Below, one piece after another: positions 18,168 to 64,000 of a stretch of DNA of 64,000 bases; position 1 is the first letter of the stretch, and each line of letters starts with the position of its first letter. The notes below the pieces were generated by a model that was not told where the DNA came from, did no database searches, and worked only from the letters and a program-made list of their open reading frames with translations. Position numbers and translations under genes: made by a program. Origin of the DNA: Porphyridium purpureum (lineage: Eukaryota); assembly GCA_008690995.1 (NCBI GenBank), contig VRMN01000001.1, positions 2,356,001 through 2,420,000 of the forward strand. The letters run 5' to 3'.

Positions 18168-20447
18168 TTATACAGTTGCGAGAGATCCGGCTTTGGTCAC
18201 GAGGCGGTCCACCCATCGAACCGCCCCGCACCAGCGGAGGCTTGCCAGAATTTTGAGAGGCATAACTAGCAACGCGGCTAGAGCAGCGCTCGAGTCCTTC
18301 GATAACCACACAAAAACACGCGGATGGCACGACGCGCGAACACCATTCACCACGATGTTTTGGTTCCAAACGAGAGCGTTCACAGCCCGTGTCACACCTG
18401 CATCTTTAACGCTGAGAACGTGAAGCACATGACCCGCCGCGGAAACGAGTTGATCGCCTTGCGCCAATTCGCCGATTGTTGCTAAAGCTGGCTTACCGTG
18501 GCGCCGCGTATACACCATGTGATGTGGCGTGCCTGTCAACTGCCCCGTTCCACCATTCTCAGTATCCCAAAAGTGAACCACCAGCATCGGAACACGCACT
18601 GCAAAGTGATCATCCCGATGCTGAAGCAAAACAAGTCGCTCAAATTGCGTTGTCGCTGCATTTTCAGTACCAAACGACTCGACAAGGTCTCCTTCTTCAA
18701 GTTCGTCCAGTCTCTTCGTCATCACTAGACCTGAGGAAGGCTCTCGGACGCGCACCATGCTGTCTGCAGCGAAGCACGCCGCGCCAACATTCGAGCCATC
18801 ATTCGAACCGTCGTCGGTCACATTCGGCATGTTAGGTTGGTTGGGCCCTCCGGGATACACGAGGCCCCGCGCGTCCGCGCTGAAGCGCACGGCTCGCATC
18901 GTTCCGTCAAACAGCTCCATGCCCGAAGGACGAATGTATCTACTTTCCAATACGAAGCCGTCCGTGGCCGAATACGTCCTAGGACGTAGCTCGATTCCGA
19001 CCGACATCAGGCCCAGAGCGCCGTACGAATAGTCAATTGAAATGCCTGCAGCTCGGTAAAGCGTAGTCGATGCCGGACCTGACGTGTAATTCAGCCCGTA
19101 TCTCGCGGTCATGGCAGACGCGATCGTGTCGGCAAAGGTATACAACGATTCGTCGTCCGCACGGTCAAACTTGTACGCGTAAGGTGCGAGCACAAGCTGA
19201 CCGTAAGAGTGGACGTCGACATAAAACGCGATGCCCCGCTCGCCCTCAAGCAAGCTTCGGATGGCTTGGGTCTCCGGTTCACTGAATGCCTCCGTGCCGC
19301 GGAAAAGCGAAGAACAGATGTCATTGGAAGAAGTCGAGACACCTCCAAAACCAACAGGGTAATTGCGGTTCAAGTCGACCCCGGTGCAGGGCGAGTCTAA
19401 ATCCACTGCGCGCCTATTTTTGCGCCAGAAGCGATTGCGTTCGAATGTGTGCACGTATCCATCCGGGTTGACAATCGGCACCAGCACAAGCTCGACATTG
19501 TCCAGTAAGGCTACGATCGCCTTGTCTGTCTTCTTCGTATACTGCAAGCACAGAACTTCGGCAACGTAAATCACTGAGCTCACTGCAATCCATTCACGCG
19601 CGTGCTGCAGCCCCGTCATGACTCCGCGCACCGGAGACGACGAGGATGTGCGACCCACTCGAAAAGCATAAATGGGCCGCCCACTGGATGAGGCTCCCAA
19701 CGTGACCAGACTCAGCACCTCGGGATATAATTCGACCAGCTCCTCCATGTGTTTGTAGACGTCATCCAGATCTCGGTAGGTGTCGTAGAACGAAGAAGCA
19801 TAGAAGGTTCCGTTTTCATCCGTTGATTGGGGTAGAGGCTCTGGGCTCGATTCCGGAGAGACACTGGAGGTCCCATTCGCGTCCACGGGTTCCTCTGTAG
19901 TCTCGCTGCTCTCTTCCTGTTCGTCCGACGGATTACCTTGCCGGCCGAGCCCATCCATCTGATTTGAATGGGACTTGACCGCTGAGTCAAGGAACAATTC
20001 AGCGAGGCTATGGAGTACCACTTCCAGATCCGCAGGCGGTTGTAATGCCTCCAGCGCGGCCAACTGAGATTCGGACACGAAAATGCAAGTCCGCTCACCA
20101 TCATATCGGAGCGCATCTAAATCACCTTCACAGGTCTCGAATGCCCCAAGCGACGCCATCAAGTCGCCAATGCGCGTGGCATCCTGTTCATCCTTGGGGA
20201 AGACCGATACCGCAGCATATCCAAGCACGTCTTCGGGGGTCACACTCTCGCGCACGCTGAGAGGCACGAACGCCAGATTATTGGCGTCGACGTGCTCACG
20301 AAGACTGCGTGATTGCCGCGGAGCGTATACCCGACTCACGATCTGCTCTCTCACTTGAGTTGGTACGCCTTCGACACGCATCAGCGCCCCAGACCATAAT
20401 GTCAAAAACAGTACTAAGCACAGACTGATACATTGACACCTCTTCAT
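18168..20447 (-). CDS. Secreted M14 zinc carboxypeptidase fused to a C-terminal Hedgehog-type Hint domain
   Basis: Signal peptide MKRCQCISLCLVLFLTLWSGALMRVEG. M14 motifs are HAREW, NPDGY, WRKNR, GVDLNRNY, FSEPET, DVHSYGQ and IELR. The Hint begins at GAA|CFAADSMV (Cys codon 18774-18776), with LEEGDLV, TPHH and IVVNGVRASCH. Confidence 0.9.
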   Translation of the reverse strand: MKRCQCISLCLVLFLTLWSGALMRVEGVPTQVREQIVSRVYAPRQSRSLREHVDANNLAFVPLSVRESVTPEDVLGYAAVSVFPKDEQDATRIGDLMASLGAFETCEGDLDALRYDGERTCIFVSESQLAALEALQPPADLEVVLHSLAELFLDSAVKSHSNQMDGLGRQGNPSDEQEESSETTEEPVDANGTSSVSPESSPEPLPQSTDENGTFYASSFYDTYRDLDDVYKHMEELVELYPEVLSLVTLGASSSGRPIYAFRVGRTSSSSPVRGVMTGLQHAREWIAVSSVIYVAEVLCLQYTKKTDKAIVALLDNVELVLVPIVNPDGYVHTFERNRFWRKNRRAVDLDSPCTGVDLNRNYPVGFGGVSTSSNDICSSLFRGTEAFSEPETQAIRSLLEGERGIAFYVDVHSYGQLVLAPYAYKFDRADDESLYTFADTIASAMTARYGLNYTSGPASTTLYRAAGISIDYSYGALGLMSVGIELRPRTYSATDGFVLESRYIRPSGMELFDGTMRAVRFSADARGLVYPGGPNQPNMPNVTDDGSNDGSNVGAACFAADSMVRVREPSSGLVMTKRLDELEEGDLVESFGTENAATTQFERLVLLQHRDDHFAVRVPMLVVHFWDTENGGTGQLTGTPHHMVYTRRHGKPALATIGELAQGDQLVSAAGHVLHVLSVKDAGVTRAVNALVWNQNIVVNGVRASCHPRVFVWLSKDSSAALAALLVMPLKILASLRWCGAVRWVDRLVTKAGSLATV

Positions 20448-21569
20448 GTTTGTGGCAGCAGGCGTCACGGCCTGCTTCGAGCGTGACCAGCCAGCACACC
20501 ACCAGTCTGGACCCGCTTGCAGCCGCCTGCACCCCAAACCTTACCTGTCGACACTGTATTGATATATATACCAGTCGGATTCAAACGTGCTGAGTGGAAT
20601 TAGCGTTCCGCACTCTTCTTGAAGAACCAAACCTCACCGCGAGCATGCGCCTCATGCGAAACTCGCTACGAATTTCACAGCGCATTACACACGCGAACGA
20701 CAAACCCAGGCCAAAAAGAAGGAATGACGGCATCGTAGGTTCGGCGTGCGCCCTGTTGCTGTCTGCTCAACGGGTTGTTAGCGCCACGTGCTTTGCATTT
20801 TCGCGTCCTGTTGGGACAGAGTCACCAGTACACGAGCCACTGGAAGACAGATAACCGCCCTGTTCTTCCTTCCTGCTCCGGCAAGCCCTGCACGCAGCCG
20901 GCGCTCGATATCCAATTCGACCGTTTTTCATATGAGCAGAAGTCGAAAAAAGTAAAAATAAAAATGCAGAGCCGGGTGGCTGCCCAAGCACGCTTCGGGA
21001 GGGTGTGCCCGGTGTTTCTAGTAAAACGCCGCCGTTTCATAGGGACCCTGCGCCAGTTCCACGGAAATGGGTGAGTGCCTGCCACGTGTTGGCGCGGGCT
21101 CGGTGCGGTTGCGCTGCCGGAATGGACCAATCGGACGCTTGAATTCGCCGCCAGCAGCAGCGGCCGGCGCCCCATGGACAAGGTGAGGCGCTCCCCGCAC
21201 CGCGCGCGTTGGACAGACCCCGTTGCCTCGCGTGAGTTCCGCGTCAGCCCGCAACTGCCCGCAACTGCCCGCGTGCACGTTGGAGCGTTCGCGCGGAGGT
21301 TACGTGGGACGCGCGCATGCCGCCCCCGCGCTGTGGTGACGAAGCGCGGCGCAAGAGTCATTGCACCCGGTCCTCGGCGCACAGGAGCCCCGTCCGTACT
21401 TTTTGGAGTGAGCGCAGAATGAAAGCACTAATGGTTTCAACTTTCGAGGGCAACCGAGAAACATGTTCGGATCATCCACTACAAGTTTGAAATGCGGGTG
21501 TTTTCAAATGATTTTCATATTTTTGCACACCTCACTATACTCCTAATGTCCCCTCTAGGTGTGATCTGG

Positions 21570-24924: not shown

Positions 24925-27186
24925 TTATCGTCGCTTCTTGACCTTGAAGCCCTCCGATTCCGAGTCGACAAATGTGGTGTCCTGGAACTTAAGCCGCCTT
25001 GTCTTGGCATGCTTCGACTGCACGGGCTTTTCAAACACGCAATTTTCAAAGCGCACGCCGGACATCTTCGCAGCCTCAAACAGCGTGTCGCCCTTGAACA
25101 CGCAGTAGCTGAACACAACATTCTTCAACGTAGCGTCCGAAAAGTCCGCCTCCTCTTCAAACGTCACGTCTGTGAATCGCGTCTTGCTCAAGTAGCTGCC
25201 AACAAACTTGGCCGGTCCGCTGAACGAGATATTTGTGAAGCGTGCGCTGCTCACCTGGGTGCCAGATATGCGCAAAAGCGAGCCTTTTCCGAATACCGAG
25301 TCCACCAGATCAAACCTATCGAGCTTGCTCTTCGAGACGCGCAATTGGCCGCCCTCCACTACTTTCACACCGGAAACGCTCATTTTCGAAGCCTTGCTCT
25401 TGTCCACGGAAACCAAGCCTGCCACTTGCACAGCGCTCATCTTCACAGCTGCCAGCGTCGACTCCTCGATGGACAGTGTACCGTCAATGACGAGCTGCTC
25501 CATTGAAACGGCCTTCATCGAGCCCTTGAACGCGCGGAAAACGTCCTTGATCCAAAGCTTTTTCAGCTCTACCTTCGCAAGGGTGGGTTCGCGAAGGACG
25601 ACAGCCCCTCCAAAACCAATATCGTGAATCTGAACTCGATTCAGCTTTGGTTTCTCGAATACGGCCGACCCGCCAAAGAGAACCACGCTCGCGGTGCACT
25701 TCAACATTTTCAGGCCACCCATAAATGACGACTTGCGTATCTCGACCTGAGCAGAGAAGTCAACGAAAAAAAGAAAATCAAGAAAAGAAGACAAAGAAGG
25801 GAGAGCACAGAAGAGAGATCAAACGATAAAGATATTCGCGTTCTGTCAGATATCATTCTCGTCCAGAGCTGGCACCTACACTGCACGAACCGATGCTCTC
25901 AAGACCATGTACAAACACGTTACGGCCGGCAAGACGCGATAAAGGGCGCGAGCACCGGTGCTTTTTTCATGTTCCCAGCGGTACTTTTTTCTTGCTCAAG
26001 TAACACAGATTCGGAGTTATACCACTGGGAACGTAGCCCCGCATACCCGCAGTACGAATCTTGAGCGTGATTTGCCTTGCTGCCATACAATCAAACATGG
26101 TCATATGATGAAGCGAAAAGACAAACAAAGCAGACTAAAAAGAAGATGAGTAAGTGTGCAGCGTAAACGTACCTCATCGAAATCGGATTTAAACAGGTAC
26201 GGCTTCTCCATCGATGCACTGCCTGCCACCGCCACGTTCGAGACCTGCGAGCTTTTAACAATCAGCTTGTCCATGACAAGATCCTGAGCCACGTCGAGTC
26301 CACGTACTTCGCTACTGACCAGCTTTGGCGCTGTTAAACGCATGCTACCAGAGACGACCATGTTCACGAGCTGTGATTTGCTTAAATACATCTTGACCGC
26401 GTCTAGCGCGCCCAGTGCAGCATTGAACACGCGAGTTTGGTGCAAGTACGGCTTGAAGGCGCTGGTGCTACCCGCCACGCGAATGGAGCGGAGCACAGAC
26501 TTGTAAAAGTACGGCTTCTGAACAGTGAGAGGCCCGTAAACATCCACGTCGCTGACAAGTGAATCGTCAAAGTACGGCTTGAAAAGATCTGCGCTGCCCT
26601 TGAATATCATGCCGAGCAGCATGGTTGTCTTTGCGTACGGCTTGTACATGATCGCCGGTTCCATGAAAAATACACTGTTCATGTAAGATTTGCGCAGTGT
26701 CCAGGCTCCAAACCGCGACGTCGACACGAATGTTGCGTTGGACCACGCGCTCTTGAATCCGTACAATTTCCCTGTGGTGCCGACGCCCGCAAAGGTCGTG
26801 TTTCTGAGCGCGGTTTTCTTGTACGAAGCCCACTTCGACTGCTTCAGGGGCAGTGCGACCACGGCATTATCCACGCGCGCCTTGAAGATCTGGACAAAGG
26901 CGTTGTCCTGGATGTCGAACGGATCATAGGACTTTGAGGTCCAAATCGCGGCGGTATCGCGGGTGACGAACGCCGGGATGCCCGGTCGCGTGATCACAAT
27001 CAGCACGACGGCCATGATCATCATCAGCGCCGAGAACATGACTGCGGCGCCGAGCCCGACCATCACGAGCGGGTTCTCGAGCGTGTCGGCGGCGCTGTCC
27101 GGCACGCCCATGTCCTTGAGCTTCTTGTGGAACGCGGAGCCGCCCGCTCCCCCGCCCGCCGCTGGCGCAGCCCCGACCGTCGCCAT
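24925..27186 (-). CDS. Membrane-anchored beta-solenoid / pentapeptide-repeat protein; two exons (27186-26173, 25746-24925)
   Basis: TM segment LVMVGLGAAVMFSALMMIMAVVLIVI, then 21-22 aa repeats with recurrent KPY. The later units resemble pentapeptide repeats (FTDVTFEEEADFSDATLKNVVFSYCVFKGDTLF). Splicing joins the two track ORFs in phase 0 as ...KSDFDE|VEIRKS... Confidence 0.8.
25747..26172 (-). other. Spliceosomal GT-AG intron, 426 nt
   Basis: Donor GAG|GTACGT, long pyrimidine tract, TTGAC branch-like site and acceptor CTCAG|GTC. Removal restores the frame and the repeat pattern. Confidence 0.8.
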
Positions 27187-28208
27187 CGCGCCCGCCCGCC
27201 TTTTCCTTCGATCCACGCCACCTCACCCCACGCCACCACACCACACACCCACACGTTCCGTGCCTCCCGTCAAAGCCTTCACCTGCCCACTACCTTCTTC
27301 TCTCAGTCTCTCTGGCGCTGTACCGCAACCCCTCTCCATACCAAAGCGCGCCCGTTTTCCACATCTCACGTCAGTTGATCCATTTTCAAAGCGCGGACGC
27401 AAGTCCACCAAGCAACATCGCGGTACACTACCCATCTCCGTTTGTGTACAGTGCCGGGTGTTCTGTTATGCGCGTTAGTGTGTTCACGTAACGCTGGACA
27501 TCACGTTTGCGCGTGCCACACACGTTCGGGTTGATTGGTTGGTTGCGCGTGTGTGCGTGCGCATGTGCGGTTTGTATAGTAGATGGATAGAGAAATCGAA
27601 CCTCTACGCTCCAGCTGGATCAATCCACTCAGACCCACGATGAGCGAACACCTACCCCTCTTTCTCTCTCTCTCTTTCTTTCTCTCTACGTAAACGCACG
27701 CGTTTTGACACAATGCCGGTGCGAGTGTATGTGAGTGAGTGTGTTTTGATAGGCACGCGCAGTTTGCCCTTGGAGTACCAAGGAATAAAGGAAAAAGATA
27801 ACCACGACAAACAATGAGGGAAGAAAAAGATGGTTTAGGACTTGAAGAAGGCGGAAGGTGAGAAGGGTTGTTCGCATTCATTCGGTGTGGCGGGCAAGCG
27901 GACGACGGCGGCAGCGGCGACACACGTACTGGCAAAGAGAGAGAGAGAGAGTGTGTGTGTTTTGTGGGTTGTGTAGGTGACGAGCTGCTCGCGGGTTGGA
28001 GTCAGTGTGTGGGGTGAAGCGGAGATTCGGGTGGAGGAAAAGTGAGTGAGGTGGTGGGCGCGACGCAAAACAGGGGCAAGCGGTACGACCGCGCGCACAC
28101 AGCCCGGCGTGTGTTGTCAGGAGGCAGAGCACAGAGAGAGGTTGCGGGGGGTTCTCGGTTGGGTTTGATTTTGCGGTGTGGCGCGCGAGAGTCGCGCGGA
28201 GAGATGCC

Positions 28209-29537
28209 ATGGCGCCAAGCGTCGCAGGCACGTACCGGCGCCACAGTGGCGGCGCCGTACCGGGACGATCAAAGGCCTACTGTGTAAAGGCACCGCCGCC
28301 GGAGAACGTCCCTCCGCTCTCGATCTCGGATGATACCCTGGATCCGCCGAAACCGCAGCCGCCCGCGAGCCGGCGGCGCGTGACTGTCAAATTCACGTCC
28401 TCGTCACCGCGCGCCGCGAGCACTCCTCGTGGCCCCGTAGAGGCGGCGTCCTCGCGCAAACCATCTTGCGCATCGCTCGGTGCCGTCGGTGTTGCGACTG
28501 GGCCACTCGATACGGGGCTGCTTCAGAGTCCGGAGATTCTGACGCCGAGCTGGCGCAAGCGCAAGAGACTCAGCGAACTTTCCGCTGATTCGCCCCGCTC
28601 AAGCCCCGCTGCCTTGAGTTCGTTATCGGCATGTGGTGGCACCGACGTTGCGACACAACCGGGCAGGCAGACGCGCCGGCAATCATCATGGGAGCGCAAG
28701 AATCCTGCGGCTCAATCGCCCTCCCTTTTGCTGGAACCATCTTTGGGTTTGAATGGCCAAGGCGGACTGCGCATGGACACGTGCAGCTTGGCCGCAGGAG
28801 CAGATGATGTTGATGTATGGTTCGATGAGGAGGAACTCGCATTTCTGGAACGGCACGATGCCGGTGCGCGCGAAGAGCGGCAGCGATTGATGCCATCGTC
28901 CCTGTCACTGCCCACGCCTTCGTCCTCTCCCTCTTTGAAGCCTGGGACCTGCACAAGTAGTCTGGACACGAGTGCGAATGCGTCAATGAAGAAGCGATCC
29001 CGCACCTTTTCGGGATACAAGACCGCGGGCCCGCCACCCGAGGCTTTGGCCCTTCCACTTCCTCTCGAAGCGGCTCGGGAAGTCCAAAATATTCGCAGAA
29101 AGCACGCCTTGAACCAAGAAGCTCGCGCGGCGCACGCAAAGGAGTTTGACGAAAAGGACACAGCGCGTAGGTGGGAAGACGCTTTGCGTGATACATTCAC
29201 CCATGTCGGCAATGCCTTAGGCACTGTGCGTGCGAACGTTGTGGACTTGGAATCGAAAGATGCTCCGCTCGCGTCTTTACTAGCGCAAGCACTGGAGGAG
29301 TTGGAAAAGAGCGTGCAGCGGGTGAAGAAAAGTACCAATCGGTCTATGCAGTCCCTCATCAAACAAAACCTGGAGCAGCAGAGCCCATCGGACGATCTCT
29401 TGCAAGTCCGACACGGAATTCCGCGCTTGGAAGGCGAGCGCTTTTCGATCCCGGCCGGCTACTCGGACGGCACGAACGACGATCGTGGTGTCAGACCGCG
29501 CGTCGGTATTGGTGTGAGTCGAGCGATGCGAATTTAG
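28209..29537 (+). CDS. Largely disordered nuclear protein with PEHE-like motif (MSL1/KANSL1-like) and C-terminal coiled coil
   Basis: EILTPSWRKRKRL...DEEELAFLERHDAGAREERQR, basic NLS-like patches and coiled coil LAQALEELEKSVQRVKK. Confidence 0.65.
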   Translation: MAPSVAGTYRRHSGGAVPGRSKAYCVKAPPPENVPPLSISDDTLDPPKPQPPASRRRVTVKFTSSSPRAASTPRGPVEAASSRKPSCASLGAVGVATGPLDTGLLQSPEILTPSWRKRKRLSELSADSPRSSPAALSSLSACGGTDVATQPGRQTRRQSSWERKNPAAQSPSLLLEPSLGLNGQGGLRMDTCSLAAGADDVDVWFDEEELAFLERHDAGAREERQRLMPSSLSLPTPSSSPSLKPGTCTSSLDTSANASMKKRSRTFSGYKTAGPPPEALALPLPLEAAREVQNIRRKHALNQEARAAHAKEFDEKDTARRWEDALRDTFTHVGNALGTVRANVVDLESKDAPLASLLAQALEELEKSVQRVKKSTNRSMQSLIKQNLEQQSPSDDLLQVRHGIPRLEGERFSIPAGYSDGTNDDRGVRPRVGIGVSRAMRI

Positions 29538-29818
29538 GCTATTTCGGTGGATGCTGTAATTGTTGTACGATTTCCTTGAGTTGGGTCGCTGTTGCGTACG
29601 AGAGCGGGCTTCGCGTAGTCGTTGAATGTGTCCCGTCTCCTGGACAATGAGAAGCAAACCATGAAATATGAAAAAAGAGTGTATAAAATGATTTAAAAAA
29701 TGAAGCTTCTCGATGACGTCGGTCTCCGCGGAAAGGGGTAGAACGGCGAGGAGCATAACTTTCTTCGTGGCGTTGGCAGCAGCGAGCCTTCTCCGGTATC
29801 ACTTCCGGAGCCCTTGTC

Positions 29819-62897: not shown

Positions 62898-64000
62898 TTA
62901 AGAATTATACGGAAGAGGTGGTGTCCATTGGATCCTGGAAGGATCAACAAGAAGGCCACGCGATCCTAGCTTCATTTTCATCACGCGACGCATGTCAATG
63001 ATGTGAAGTCCCTCGTAGTACTGAATAAGTTCGAGAACCTGCAACGTCCCAATGATATCTTCTGTCTTCATCATGGTGCGATCGCGGATAGCCTCGATAC
63101 TGATGCTGCCGCTGGTCTCATTCTTGAGCAAGTCGATGAGCAGCTGCGACCAGAAGCTGCGATACCCGAGCAAACCCAGGTCTGAAAGAGGCTTTTCAGG
63201 TGAGCCGACCTTGTTTTCTAACTTGCTCAGCTCGTAGCTGAATGAAATGAGGAACTTGCCGTAGCCCTTGCGCTGAAACGCCGGCAGCGTCAGAATGCAC
63301 GCGACGTTGTAGTTTTCCTCAGACTGCTTCTCTTTGCTAAAATAACCGACGAGATGATGACCCTGCTCATCGCTCTCGGTCATGATGTAGAAAAGGAACG
63401 GGTCCACGTCGTAGTACAAGGTCTTGTGGTCCAAAAACAGTTTCGCAATGTAGCACAAGTTGCGACAATATGTGCGATTCTTCTCGCCGTCAATTTCCCA
63501 CATACTTACATTATCCTTGCGATAGATTTCAATGCCGAGCGGGTGTCGGATCACGCAACGCTTGGAATGACGGATTAGTGCGTCGTGCGTGTGTAACATT
63601 TTCAAGCAAAACTCACAGAAGAACACGCGCGAGCAACCCTCAAACTCCTCAGGAAATGGCGAGTAGTACCATGCGTTCATTTCGTGCTTCCCGAGCACAA
63701 TTGTCGATATATTCTTCACATGGTGCGCATGGTCGTCGTGCCCACCTGTCGACGCGGCCGTCCCGCTCCGGCTCTTCTTCTTCTTCGCACTGCCATCGCC
63801 CGCTTCACTTTCCCGCTTACGTTTACCATCACTGGACAACGCCGCTGCTCCCTTTGCTTGAGGCGCTATGTTTTCCTTGCCGCGACCTCCGGTCGTCGGC
63901 GATGCTGGCTCATCATTTGAATCATTCGGTCGCTCCGTGTCTGAACCCTCCGGATACGTATTTTTGGCCGAGTCTTTCTTTTTCCCCTTGCCACTCTTCT
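62898..64000 (-). CDS. MYST-family histone acetyltransferase (MOF/Esa1/HAM type), 5' end outside the window
   Basis: WYYSPFP, C2HC finger CEFC...H..RC, FLDHKTLYYDVDPF, NVACILTLP.FQRKGYG and GSPEKPLSDLG; the frame stays open to the window end. Confidence 0.95.
   Translation of the reverse strand, partial: KSGKGKKKDSAKNTYPEGSDTERPNDSNDEPASPTTGGRGKENIAPQAKGAAALSSDGKRKRESEAGDGSAKKKKSRSGTAASTGGHDDHAHHVKNISTIVLGKHEMNAWYYSPFPEEFEGCSRVFFCEFCLKMLHTHDALIRHSKRCVIRHPLGIEIYRKDNVSMWEIDGEKNRTYCRNLCYIAKLFLDHKTLYYDVDPFLFYIMTESDEQGHHLVGYFSKEKQSEENYNVACILTLPAFQRKGYGKFLISFSYELSKLENKVGSPEKPLSDLGLLGYRSFWSQLLIDLLKNETSGSISIEAIRDRTMMKTEDIIGTLQVLELIQYYEGLHIIDMRRVMKMKLGSRGLLVDPSRIQWTPPLPYNS

What the first reader, a model, noticed from the sequence alone, without database searches (positions are those of the whole stretch)
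28533..28890. Split PEHE motif: a candidate MSL1/KANSL1-like MOF partner in an alga
Seen: EILTPSWR and, about 90 aa later, EEELAFLERHDAGAREERQR in an otherwise disordered protein. Established, from memory: human KANSL1 PEHE reads EILTPSWREV...DAAFAALHAKCEEMERAR and MSL1 reads PSWR...VFSKRHAKLELDEKRR, and PEHE binds the MOF/KAT8 MYST domain. Inference: this may be the scaffold of an NSL/MSL-like H4 acetyltransferase complex, described mainly in animals, with an unusually long Ser-rich insert between the motif halves. A MOF-type MYST gene lies in the same window (62898-64000), although that proximity may be chance.
Basis: partly seen in the sequence, partly recalled or inferred. Interest (0 to 1): 0.75.

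Follow-up and report, generated by a model that had tools for sequence, protein, structure and literature searches.

The report
Stretched PEHE-like motif in an alga
An alga (likely a red alga) transcribes a gene for a protein, predicted to be mostly floppy, that holds an exact copy of the first half and a worn copy of the second half of the animal motif that grips the histone-acetylating enzyme MOF, so it is likely a distant, stripped-down partner of the alga's related enzyme, but binding is untested and chance resemblance is not excluded.

Summary
Both motifs are real: aa 109-116 and 207-226 of an intronless, transcribed 442-aa ORF (28209-29537, +). The 90-aa spacer is coding and varies between strains. 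Motif A is identical to KANSL1's EILTPSWR in tool-retrieved KANSL1 proteins. Motif B is the best PEHE-helix match in the protein (F-x-x-R-H..E-R-x-R; shuffle P about 0.0003-0.012), with a predicted helix. Against membership: no Pfam PEHE hit; 4 of 7 invariant helix-block residues differ (EDLSD and the Glu at His+4 are lost); Trp-to-His spacing is 101 against 28-68; no other KANSL1 or MSL1 block is present; and no orthologue was found, red-algal or other. The nearby MYST gene is a plant/algal HAM-type enzyme whose closest solved relatives are KAT7 and Esa1, not MOF; it lies 33 kb and 18 unrelated ORFs away. The complex prediction could not be run. Verdict: probably (about 70%) a highly diverged descendant of the KANSL1 PEHE motif. 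Most likely it is a minimal MYST-binding adaptor (0.45) rather than a full NSL/MSL scaffold (0.10); chance resemblance is 0.28. If real, the PEHE-MYST module reaches beyond animals and their close relatives into Archaeplastida.

The parts
28209..29537 (+). Intronless ORF, 442 aa (P0001); orphan; about two thirds predicted disordered
   Evidence: no homologue
27865..29677 (+). Approximate transcribed span (stranded RNA reads; molecule ends pile up at 27865 and 29677)
   Evidence: run X24
28521..28556 (+). Block A, aa 105-116: L-Q-x-x followed by the exact KANSL1 core EILTPSWR (aa 109-116, 28533-28556); the family's preceding E, K, Y and K are not kept
28554..28568 (+). Basic cluster aa 116-120 right after block A; fits a classical monopartite NLS (consensus recalled, not tested)
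   Evidence: sequence
28557..28826 (+). 90-aa spacer: transcribed, low pLDDT, 7 non-synonymous and 1 synonymous fixed differences in another strain; two haplotypes at 28598-28714
28827..28886 (+). Block B, aa 207-226, predicted helix; keeps F212, R215, H216, E223, R224, R226 of the PEHE helix; lacks the E-D-L-S-D turn and the Glu at His+4
29064..29378 (+). C-terminal helical hairpin / coiled coil, aa 286-390, pLDDT up to 95; no family or specific fold match
62898..64000 (-). 3' part of a MYST acetyltransferase gene (full protein P0003, 499 aa: Tudor-knot, zf-MYST, MOZ_SAS); algal/plant HAM-type; the inferred partner, not part of the same locus

Best explanation
The protein is likely a highly diverged descendant of the KANSL1-type PEHE motif, and is predicted to work as a minimal adaptor that would grip the alga's HAM-type MYST acetyltransferase through two short elements joined by a disordered loop. 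Shown: both blocks, their order, transcription without splicing, a variable spacer, and block B's match to real PEHE helices. Predicted: the block B helix and the C-terminal hairpin. Inferred by analogy with MOF-MSL1 (2Y0M, 4DNC): block A lies along the MYST domain, the 90-aa spacer loops out, and the helix docks through F212 and H216. The basic cluster after block A would take the protein into the nucleus, and the C-terminal hairpin would oligomerise or recruit a lineage-specific partner in place of the WDR5/KANSL2/MCRS1 contacts. The outcome would be stimulated or targeted H4 acetylation, more NSL-like than H4K16-specific, because the long MSL1 anchor helix is absent.
For: Block A: E, I, L, T, P, W are invariant in 19 of 19 retrieved KANSL1-like proteins and all kept, plus S, R and the upstream L and Q. 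Block B: best 24-aa window of the whole protein under three PSSMs, anchored on H216; shuffles of aa 117-266 reached the score in 8, 163 and 36 of 20,000. The first two PSSMs come from loci picked by block A alone. hhalign of that set against P0001 aligns block B with P 1.7e-4, probability 49%. With block A held fixed, block-B HMMs were matched or beaten at best-domain level by 1 and 16 (22-sequence HMM) or 20 and 35 (4-sequence HMM) of 3000 shuffles. A profile of this segment plus L120 retrieved 19 non-self hits, all KANSL1/PEHE-like, 16 carrying PF15275. Real members tolerate long spacers (Trp-to-His up to 68), and one of them (P0142/L120) also falls below Pfam's cut-off (22.6 and 25.6 bits against 34). 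The helix 207-227 is predicted from the single sequence. The spacer takes 7 amino-acid changes in 8 fixed strain differences, the motifs none. One other red alga has a single MYST (PMC10227436, passages), and disordered NSL1 homologues are noted as hard to detect (PMC4588387, passages).
Against: No Pfam PEHE hit at E up to 10 for the whole protein or its parts. Only 3 of 7 invariant block-B columns are kept: E(-11), S(-8), D(-7) and E(+4) differ. P0001 scores 5.6-12 bits where members score 17-74, and unrelated window ORFs reach 11.7 and 12.3 under two of the three PSSMs. The whole-domain HMM score (12.5 bits) adds nothing beyond block A: 2521 and 2830 of 3000 shuffles that keep block A score as high. 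Spacing is 101, outside 28-68. No other KANSL1 block is present. No orthologue was found in 5.8 billion clusters (only 7994 candidates scored), 1.84 billion representatives, the ESM Atlas or JGI metagenomes. None of the 19 hits is named as an alga although red-algal MYSTs are plentiful in that database; the search may have been crowded by vertebrate KANSL1. The lack of motif changes between strains is not significant (P 0.30).
Confidence: 0.45

Rival explanations
1. Chance resemblance: a fast-evolving nuclear disordered protein whose Thr-Pro site next to a basic NLS-like cluster happens to read like KANSL1, with an ordinary acidic-to-basic helix 90 aa later; its real function would lie in the C-terminal hairpin.
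For: Motif A marks a PEHE protein in only 5 of 120 metagenome loci. Block B alone is no stronger than the best windows of unrelated ORFs here. Pfam is negative, 4 of 7 invariant columns are lost and there are no orthologues.
Against: For this family alone the joint expectation is about 1e-7 to 2e-6 per proteome (independent-residue model). The second block is in the right order and is the top window under every profile. 0 of 58 motif-A decoys with at least 24 open codons reach the score, a weak control because only 13 loci, PEHE ones included, have 110 or more codons downstream.
Confidence: 0.28
2. True PEHE ancestry but a decayed or half-functional motif: one block still binds something (MYST weakly, or another partner) and the protein no longer acts as a MYST activator.
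For: The acidic E-D-L-S-D turn and the Glu at His+4, invariant in 19 of 19 members, are lost; from recall only, the Glu of that turn is a MOF contact in MSL1. AlphaFold2 pairs aa 200-206 with aa 55-61 as strands, which could mean that this stretch has a new use.
Against: Exact retention of eight residues over such a distance is hard to explain without selection; F212, R215 and H216 are kept; four acidic residues (206-209) still precede the helix.
Confidence: 0.17
3. A bona fide KANSL1/NSL1 scaffold of an intact NSL-like complex (MYST, WDR5, KANSL2, KANSL3, MCRS1).
For: Block A is KANSL1-type rather than MSL1-type. Arabidopsis has sequence orthologues of MOF, KANSL2, KANSL3, MCRS1, WDR5, OGT and HCF1 but no listed KANSL1 (PMC6607013 Table 1), which leaves a gap that such a protein could fill.
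Against: WIN, HPxLS, WxWL, DIxNIVIP, RxFP and C-terminal LKL blocks are all absent, whereas Capsaspora P0130 and the unnamed P0142 keep several. The protein is 442 aa with the PEHE-like part in its N-terminal half.
Confidence: 0.1

Closest known systems
KANSL1/NSL1 and KANSL1L PEHE region (NSL complex scaffold; e.g. P0135, P0132, Capsaspora P0130)
   Same: Exact EILTPSWR, upstream L-Q, downstream F-x-x-R-H-x6-E-R-x-R helix in the same order, helix ending near His+11, mostly disordered chain.
   Different: No E-D-L-S-D, no Glu at His+4, Trp-to-His 101 against 28-68, no DIxNIVIP, WIN, HPxLS, WxWL or RxFP blocks, less than half the length, own C-terminal helical hairpin.
MSL1 PEHE (MSL complex; PDB 2Y0M chain B, 4DNC chain D)
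   Same: P-S-W-R, then F-x-x-R-H...E-[KR]-x-R (alignment of MSL1 to a retrieved PEHE).
   Different: No direct match at E up to 10. No N-terminal coiled coil and no AFG triplet of the MSL3-binding half (PMC2893135, passages). The long anchor helix D500-K541 with R516, R519 and W520 (bioRxiv 10.64898/2026.03.03.709310, passages) cannot form, because the predicted helix stops at 227 before Pro229 (mapping inferred).
P0142 / locus L120, an unnamed metagenome KANSL1-like protein
   Same: Long Ser/Pro-rich spacer (60), sub-threshold Pfam PEHE score, closest block-B wording; BLASTP E 7e-4 pairwise.
   Different: It keeps EDLSD, the His+4 Glu, HPxLS, RxFP and the C-terminal LKL block, which P0001 lacks; its organism is unknown.
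Plant/algal HAM-type MYST (for the gene at 62898-64000)
   Same: Tudor-knot, zf-MYST and MOZ_SAS; 66-70% identical to named red-algal MYSTs, about 59-62% to streptophyte ones.
   Different: Not shown to be MOF/KAT8: solved-structure scores are KAT7 335.6, Esa1 334.9, Tip60 322.9, KAT8 316.1 bits; no tree was built.

Membership tests
PEHE domain (Pfam PF15275) | Score at or above the gathering cut-off (34 bits) | tested here: not met
   No hit at E up to 10 for the whole protein, the two-motif region or either half. The test also misses a long-spacer member, P0142, at 22.6 bits.
PEHE domain (Pfam PF15275) | Block A core E-I-L-T-P-[ST]-W-R | tested here: met
   Exact; six columns invariant in 19 of 19. 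The comparison set was found through this motif, so its invariance is partly circular; named KANSL1 records confirm the wording.
PEHE domain (Pfam PF15275) | Helix F-x-x-R-H-x6-E-[RK]-x-R downstream of block A | tested here: met
   F212, R215, H216, E223, R224, R226; helix predicted; P about 0.0003-0.012.
PEHE domain (Pfam PF15275) | Acidic turn E-[DE]-[LMV]-S-D before the helix | tested here: not met
   19 of 19 members have it; P0001 has F, D, E, E, E in these columns.
PEHE domain (Pfam PF15275) | Invariant Glu at His+4 | tested here: not met
   Ala220 against Glu in 19 of 19.
PEHE domain (Pfam PF15275) | Trp-to-His spacing within the family range | tested here: not met
   101 against 28-68 in 19 members; the spacer is not an intron.
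PEHE domain (Pfam PF15275) | Binds the MYST HAT domain | not testable with these tools
KANSL1/NSL1 scaffold | WIN motif for WDR5 (PMC4018492, passages) | tested here: not met
   Absent in P0001; present in 13 of 19 comparison proteins, absent also from Capsaspora P0130 and P0142 by the same pattern.
KANSL1/NSL1 scaffold | Other conserved blocks (DIxNIVIP, HPxLS, WxWL, RxFP) | tested here: not met
   Pattern and block-HMM scans: no hit, or no better than shuffles (428 and 655 of 3000).
KANSL1/NSL1 scaffold | Mostly intrinsically disordered | tested here: met
   259 of 442 residues under pLDDT 50 in a single-sequence model, which is weak evidence.
KANSL1/NSL1 scaffold | KANSL2, KANSL3, MCRS1 and WDR5 in the same genome and complex | not testable with these tools
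   No genome is held. The window's WD40 ORF scores 65 against a WDR5 cut-off of 250.
MSL1 | N-terminal coiled coil for MSL2 and MSL3-binding second half of PEHE (AFG) | tested here: not met
   N-terminus without predicted helix; the only long helices are C-terminal; no AFG in the sequence.
MSL1 | Extended anchor helix past the His with R516, R519, W520 | tested here: not met
   Predicted helix ends at 227, followed by Met-Pro; numbering mapped by inference.
MOF/KAT8 (neighbouring MYST gene) | Chromo-barrel, C2HC zinc finger and MYST HAT domain | tested here: met
   PF11717, PF17772, PF01853; shared with Esa1/Tip60/HAM types, so not diagnostic.
MOF/KAT8 (neighbouring MYST gene) | Groups with KAT8 rather than other MYST subfamilies | tested here: inconclusive
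   KAT7, Esa1 and Tip60 outscore KAT8 by small margins; no tree, because no animal KAT8 or KAT5 sequence was among the 120 stored hits.

The most novel reading that the evidence does not exclude
The PEHE-MYST docking module predates the split of Archaeplastida and Opisthokonta. Red algae keep it as a short, split, fast-evolving adaptor that Pfam misses, which points to the 'missing KANSL1' of plants and other eukaryotes being hidden among orphan disordered proteins, and to an ancestral NSL-like H4 acetyltransferase complex in early eukaryotes.
Probability: 0.35. Interest if true: 0.78.

Novelty: new variant of a known kind. Interest (0 to 1): 0.5.

Why it matters
A 2019 review lists Arabidopsis orthologues for seven NSL subunits but none for KANSL1, the scaffold that binds and activates MOF (PMC6607013, Table 1); the worm lacks a detected one too (PMC4588387). 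A working PEHE in a red alga would make the age of the MOF-PEHE module and of NSL-type complexes directly testable with one small peptide and one MYST domain. It would show that the two PEHE halves work across about 100 residues, and it gives a recipe (two short blocks, free spacer) for finding hidden KANSL1 relatives in plants and protists. If it is chance, it is a useful warning: an exact 8-residue match marked a real PEHE in only 5 of 120 loci.

Tried and rejected
Intron as the explanation of the spacer: in-frame GT-AG pairs exist, but RNA reads and contigs show no joint; rejected. Pfam Alfin (E 0.12 and 0.017) and NCBIfam IcmG (E 0.016 against a cut-off of 200 bits): below cut-offs, treated as chance. 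ESM Atlas: top feature score 0.78, none usable for aa 100-232. Fold searches: no Foldseek match at E 0.001 or better; VIA-align best Z 10.1 over generic helical hairpins, under the level that the tool calls meaningful for helical bundles. A possible match of aa 339-347 to KANSL1's WxWL coiled coil, seen by eye: no HMM hit; rejected. My own whole-PEHE HMM first looked significant (12.5 bits, 0 of 3000 shuffles), but the null that keeps block A removed it; not counted as support. Synteny with the MYST gene: 33 kb and 18 Pfam-annotated unrelated ORFs lie between; noticed after the fact, not counted. The Pfam scan of an insert-free version was not run; block-wise profiles were used instead. No whole genome is held, and the record behind L120 is not held. 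Kadlec 2011 and Huang 2012, which define the MOF contact residues, are not held, so contact residues are recalled only. Earlier scan findings: none. Literature searches that found no report of PEHE/KANSL1 in algae or plants: (listings only, library limited to open papers).

Full report
1. Observation. The two motifs lie in one ORF, 28209-29537 (+), 442 aa (P0001): block A at aa 109-116 (28533-28556) and block B at aa 207-226 (28827-28886), 90 aa apart. Stranded RNA reads from run X24 (1008 laid) cover the + strand from about 27865 to 29677 with no joints or indels; contigs of three further runs recorded or guessed as RNA show none either. The spacer is therefore coding. In that strain 14 fixed differences fall in the ORF: 2 non-synonymous and 3 synonymous in aa 1-108, 7 and 1 in the spacer, 0 and 1 in the motifs, none in aa 208-442; three low-share variants in the ORF were left out of this count. 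The absence of amino-acid changes in the 28 motif codons is not significant (P 0.30). A single-sequence AlphaFold2 model (mean pLDDT 54.9) gives a helix at 207-227, strands at 55-61 and 200-206, and a confident hairpin at 286-348 and 352-390. The host is likely a red alga: the window's MYST is 66-70% identical to named red-algal MYSTs and about 59-62% to streptophyte ones.

2. Standard searches are blank. Pfam gives no PEHE hit at E up to 10 for the whole protein, the two-motif region or either half. P0001 is the only hit among 7994 scored candidates of the 5.8-billion set and in the 1.84-billion phmmer search. The ESM Atlas gives nothing usable, the PDB sequences give no MSL1 hit, and 199 pattern matches in metagenomes include no relative. 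No genome is held.

3. Getting real PEHE sequences. Five read as KANSL1-like. L015, L036 and L083 pass Pfam's PEHE cut-off (43-52 bits against 34); L120 scores 25.6 bits (E 1.8e-5) and L010 10.4 bits. L083 in turn hits MSL1 in 2Y0M and 4DNC. So block A alone is a poor marker (5 of 120, in mostly non-eukaryotic or off-frame DNA). A two-row profile of P0001 aa 96-232 and the L120 segment retrieved 20 proteins among 7990 scored candidates: P0001 itself, L120's own protein, and 18 others. Sixteen carry PF15275, one is a Capsaspora protein named PEHE-domain-containing, and one is KANSL1-like by sequence. The E-values of these 18 are only 0.03-9.9, and none is named as an alga.

4. How good is block B? 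PSSMs of the 24 columns around the His, from 4 loci chosen by block A alone, from the 3 animal-like ones, and from 14 distinct segments, all place their best window in P0001 on H216 (12.1, 6.2 and 5.6 bits). Shuffles of aa 117-266 reach these scores in 8, 163 and 36 of 20,000; whole-protein shuffles in 7, 219 and 26 of 8000. None of 58 decoy loci with 24 or more open codons does. But members score 17-74 bits left out, and 30 other window ORFs reach 11.7, 12.3 and 1.5. hhalign aligns the same block with P 1.7e-4. Block-B HMMs give best-domain exceedances of 1 and 16 of 3000 (22 sequences, partly chosen with P0001's help) and 20 and 35 of 3000 (4 independent ones); at full-sequence level the counts are 135, 277, 16 and 32. 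A whole-region HMM of the five loci gives 254 and 55 of 3000. My 22-sequence whole-domain HMM aligned aa 105-226 as one domain with a long insert at 12.5 bits, above 3000 of 3000 plain shuffles, but 2521 and 2830 of 3000 shuffles that keep block A score as high, so it is no extra support. That favours descent without proving it.

5. What is lost. Column by column against 19 KANSL1-like proteins (P0124-P0142), P0001 keeps E, I, L, T, P, W, R of block A and the upstream L and Q, but not E(-6), K(-5), Y(-2) or K(-1). In block B it keeps H, E(+7) and R(+10) of seven invariant columns, plus A, F, R and R(+8), and differs at E(-11), S(-8), D(-7) and E(+4). Trp-to-His spacing is 101 against 28-68. 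WIN, HPxLS, DIxNIVIP, WxWL, RxFP and C-terminal LKL blocks are absent, whereas the unnamed long-spacer protein P0142 keeps HPxLS, EDLSD, RxFP and LKL. The MSL1 anchor helix (D500-K541; R516, R519, W520; bioRxiv 10.64898/2026.03.03.709310, passages) has no counterpart, since the predicted helix stops before Pro229; the numbering is mapped by inference.

6. The MYST neighbour. 62898-64000 (-) encodes the C-terminal 366 aa of a 499-aa Tudor-knot/zf-MYST/MOZ_SAS protein. Solved relatives score KAT7 335.6, Esa1 334.9, Tip60 322.9 and KAT8 316.1 bits; the N-terminal segment ranks KAT7, Tip60 and KAT6A above KAT8. It is HAM-type, not demonstrably MOF. It lies 33 kb away, beyond 18 ORFs with unrelated Pfam families, and I do not count the proximity. 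It remains the natural partner because Pyropia has a single MYST (PMC10227436, passages); whether this genome has others could not be checked.

7. Mechanism. The most likely reading (0.45) is a KANSL1-derived two-part MYST-binding motif on a minimal adaptor: block A along the HAT domain, spacer looped out, helix docking through F212 and H216, nuclear import through the basic cluster at aa 116-120 (NLS consensus recalled), and a lineage-specific coiled-coil hairpin for other partners. Sequence, transcription and motif statistics are shown; helix and hairpin are predicted; binding, localisation and any effect on H4 acetylation are inferred. That PEHE binds the MOF HAT domain is taken from PMC4018492 and PMC6607013 (passages); the specific contact residues are recalled from papers that I could not read. 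Rivals: chance (0.28), decayed PEHE (0.17), full NSL scaffold (0.10). No interface prediction was obtained.

8. Novelty. PMC6607013 (section 4 read whole) lists no KANSL1 orthologue in Arabidopsis or worm; PMC4588387 (passages) says that disordered NSL1 homologues are hard to detect; PMC6115402 (passages) only speculates about a rice NSL complex from OsMOF and OsWDR5. PMC2893135 and PMC13380446 (passages) describe PEHE in animals; PMC11109948 (passages) added nothing. Searches (listings) showed no report of PEHE or KANSL1 in algae; the library lacks most subscription papers, and supplements were not read. Databases already annotate a PEHE protein in Capsaspora, so the motif is not strictly animal-only. 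I do not file P0001 as a PEHE member, since defining features were tested and not met; it looks like, and probably descends from, one. Rating: new variant of a known kind, interest 0.5.

Noticed in passing
window 28598-28714 (and the 5' half of the gene): All four DNA runs laid show two haplotypes at roughly equal depth, differing at 5 sites in 57 bp (4 non-synonymous); the 5' contigs of three of them have well under half the depth of the 3' contig. This suggests a heterozygous (diploid or mixed) 5' half and a uniform 3' half.
   Followed up: partly
window 28204-28287: An out-of-frame ATG 5 nt upstream of the main start opens a 27-codon overlapping uORF; the main ATG has the stronger context (read from the sequence).
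   Followed up: no
window 28803-28826 and 28371-28391: aa 199-204 resemble a WDR5-binding acidic-hydrophobic motif (consensus recalled; a similar core is quoted for SUMV-1 in PMC4588387), and AlphaFold2 pairs aa 200-206 with aa 55-61 as strands. Untested.
   Followed up: no
L120:3-623 (-), proteins P0123/P0142: A compact 543-aa KANSL1-like protein from an unnamed, GC-rich metagenome record, with a 60-residue Trp-to-His spacer, below Pfam's cut-off but keeping five KANSL1 blocks; possibly a non-animal KANSL1.
   Followed up: partly
window 18171-20540 (-): A zinc carboxypeptidase (Peptidase_M14) fused to a C-terminal Hint module, which suggests autoprocessing.
   Followed up: no
window 24928-27222 (-): Two adjacent repeat-rich ORFs, one with pentapeptide repeats and one without a Pfam hit; possibly one spliced gene or a tandem pair, divergent from the PEHE-like gene.
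   Followed up: no
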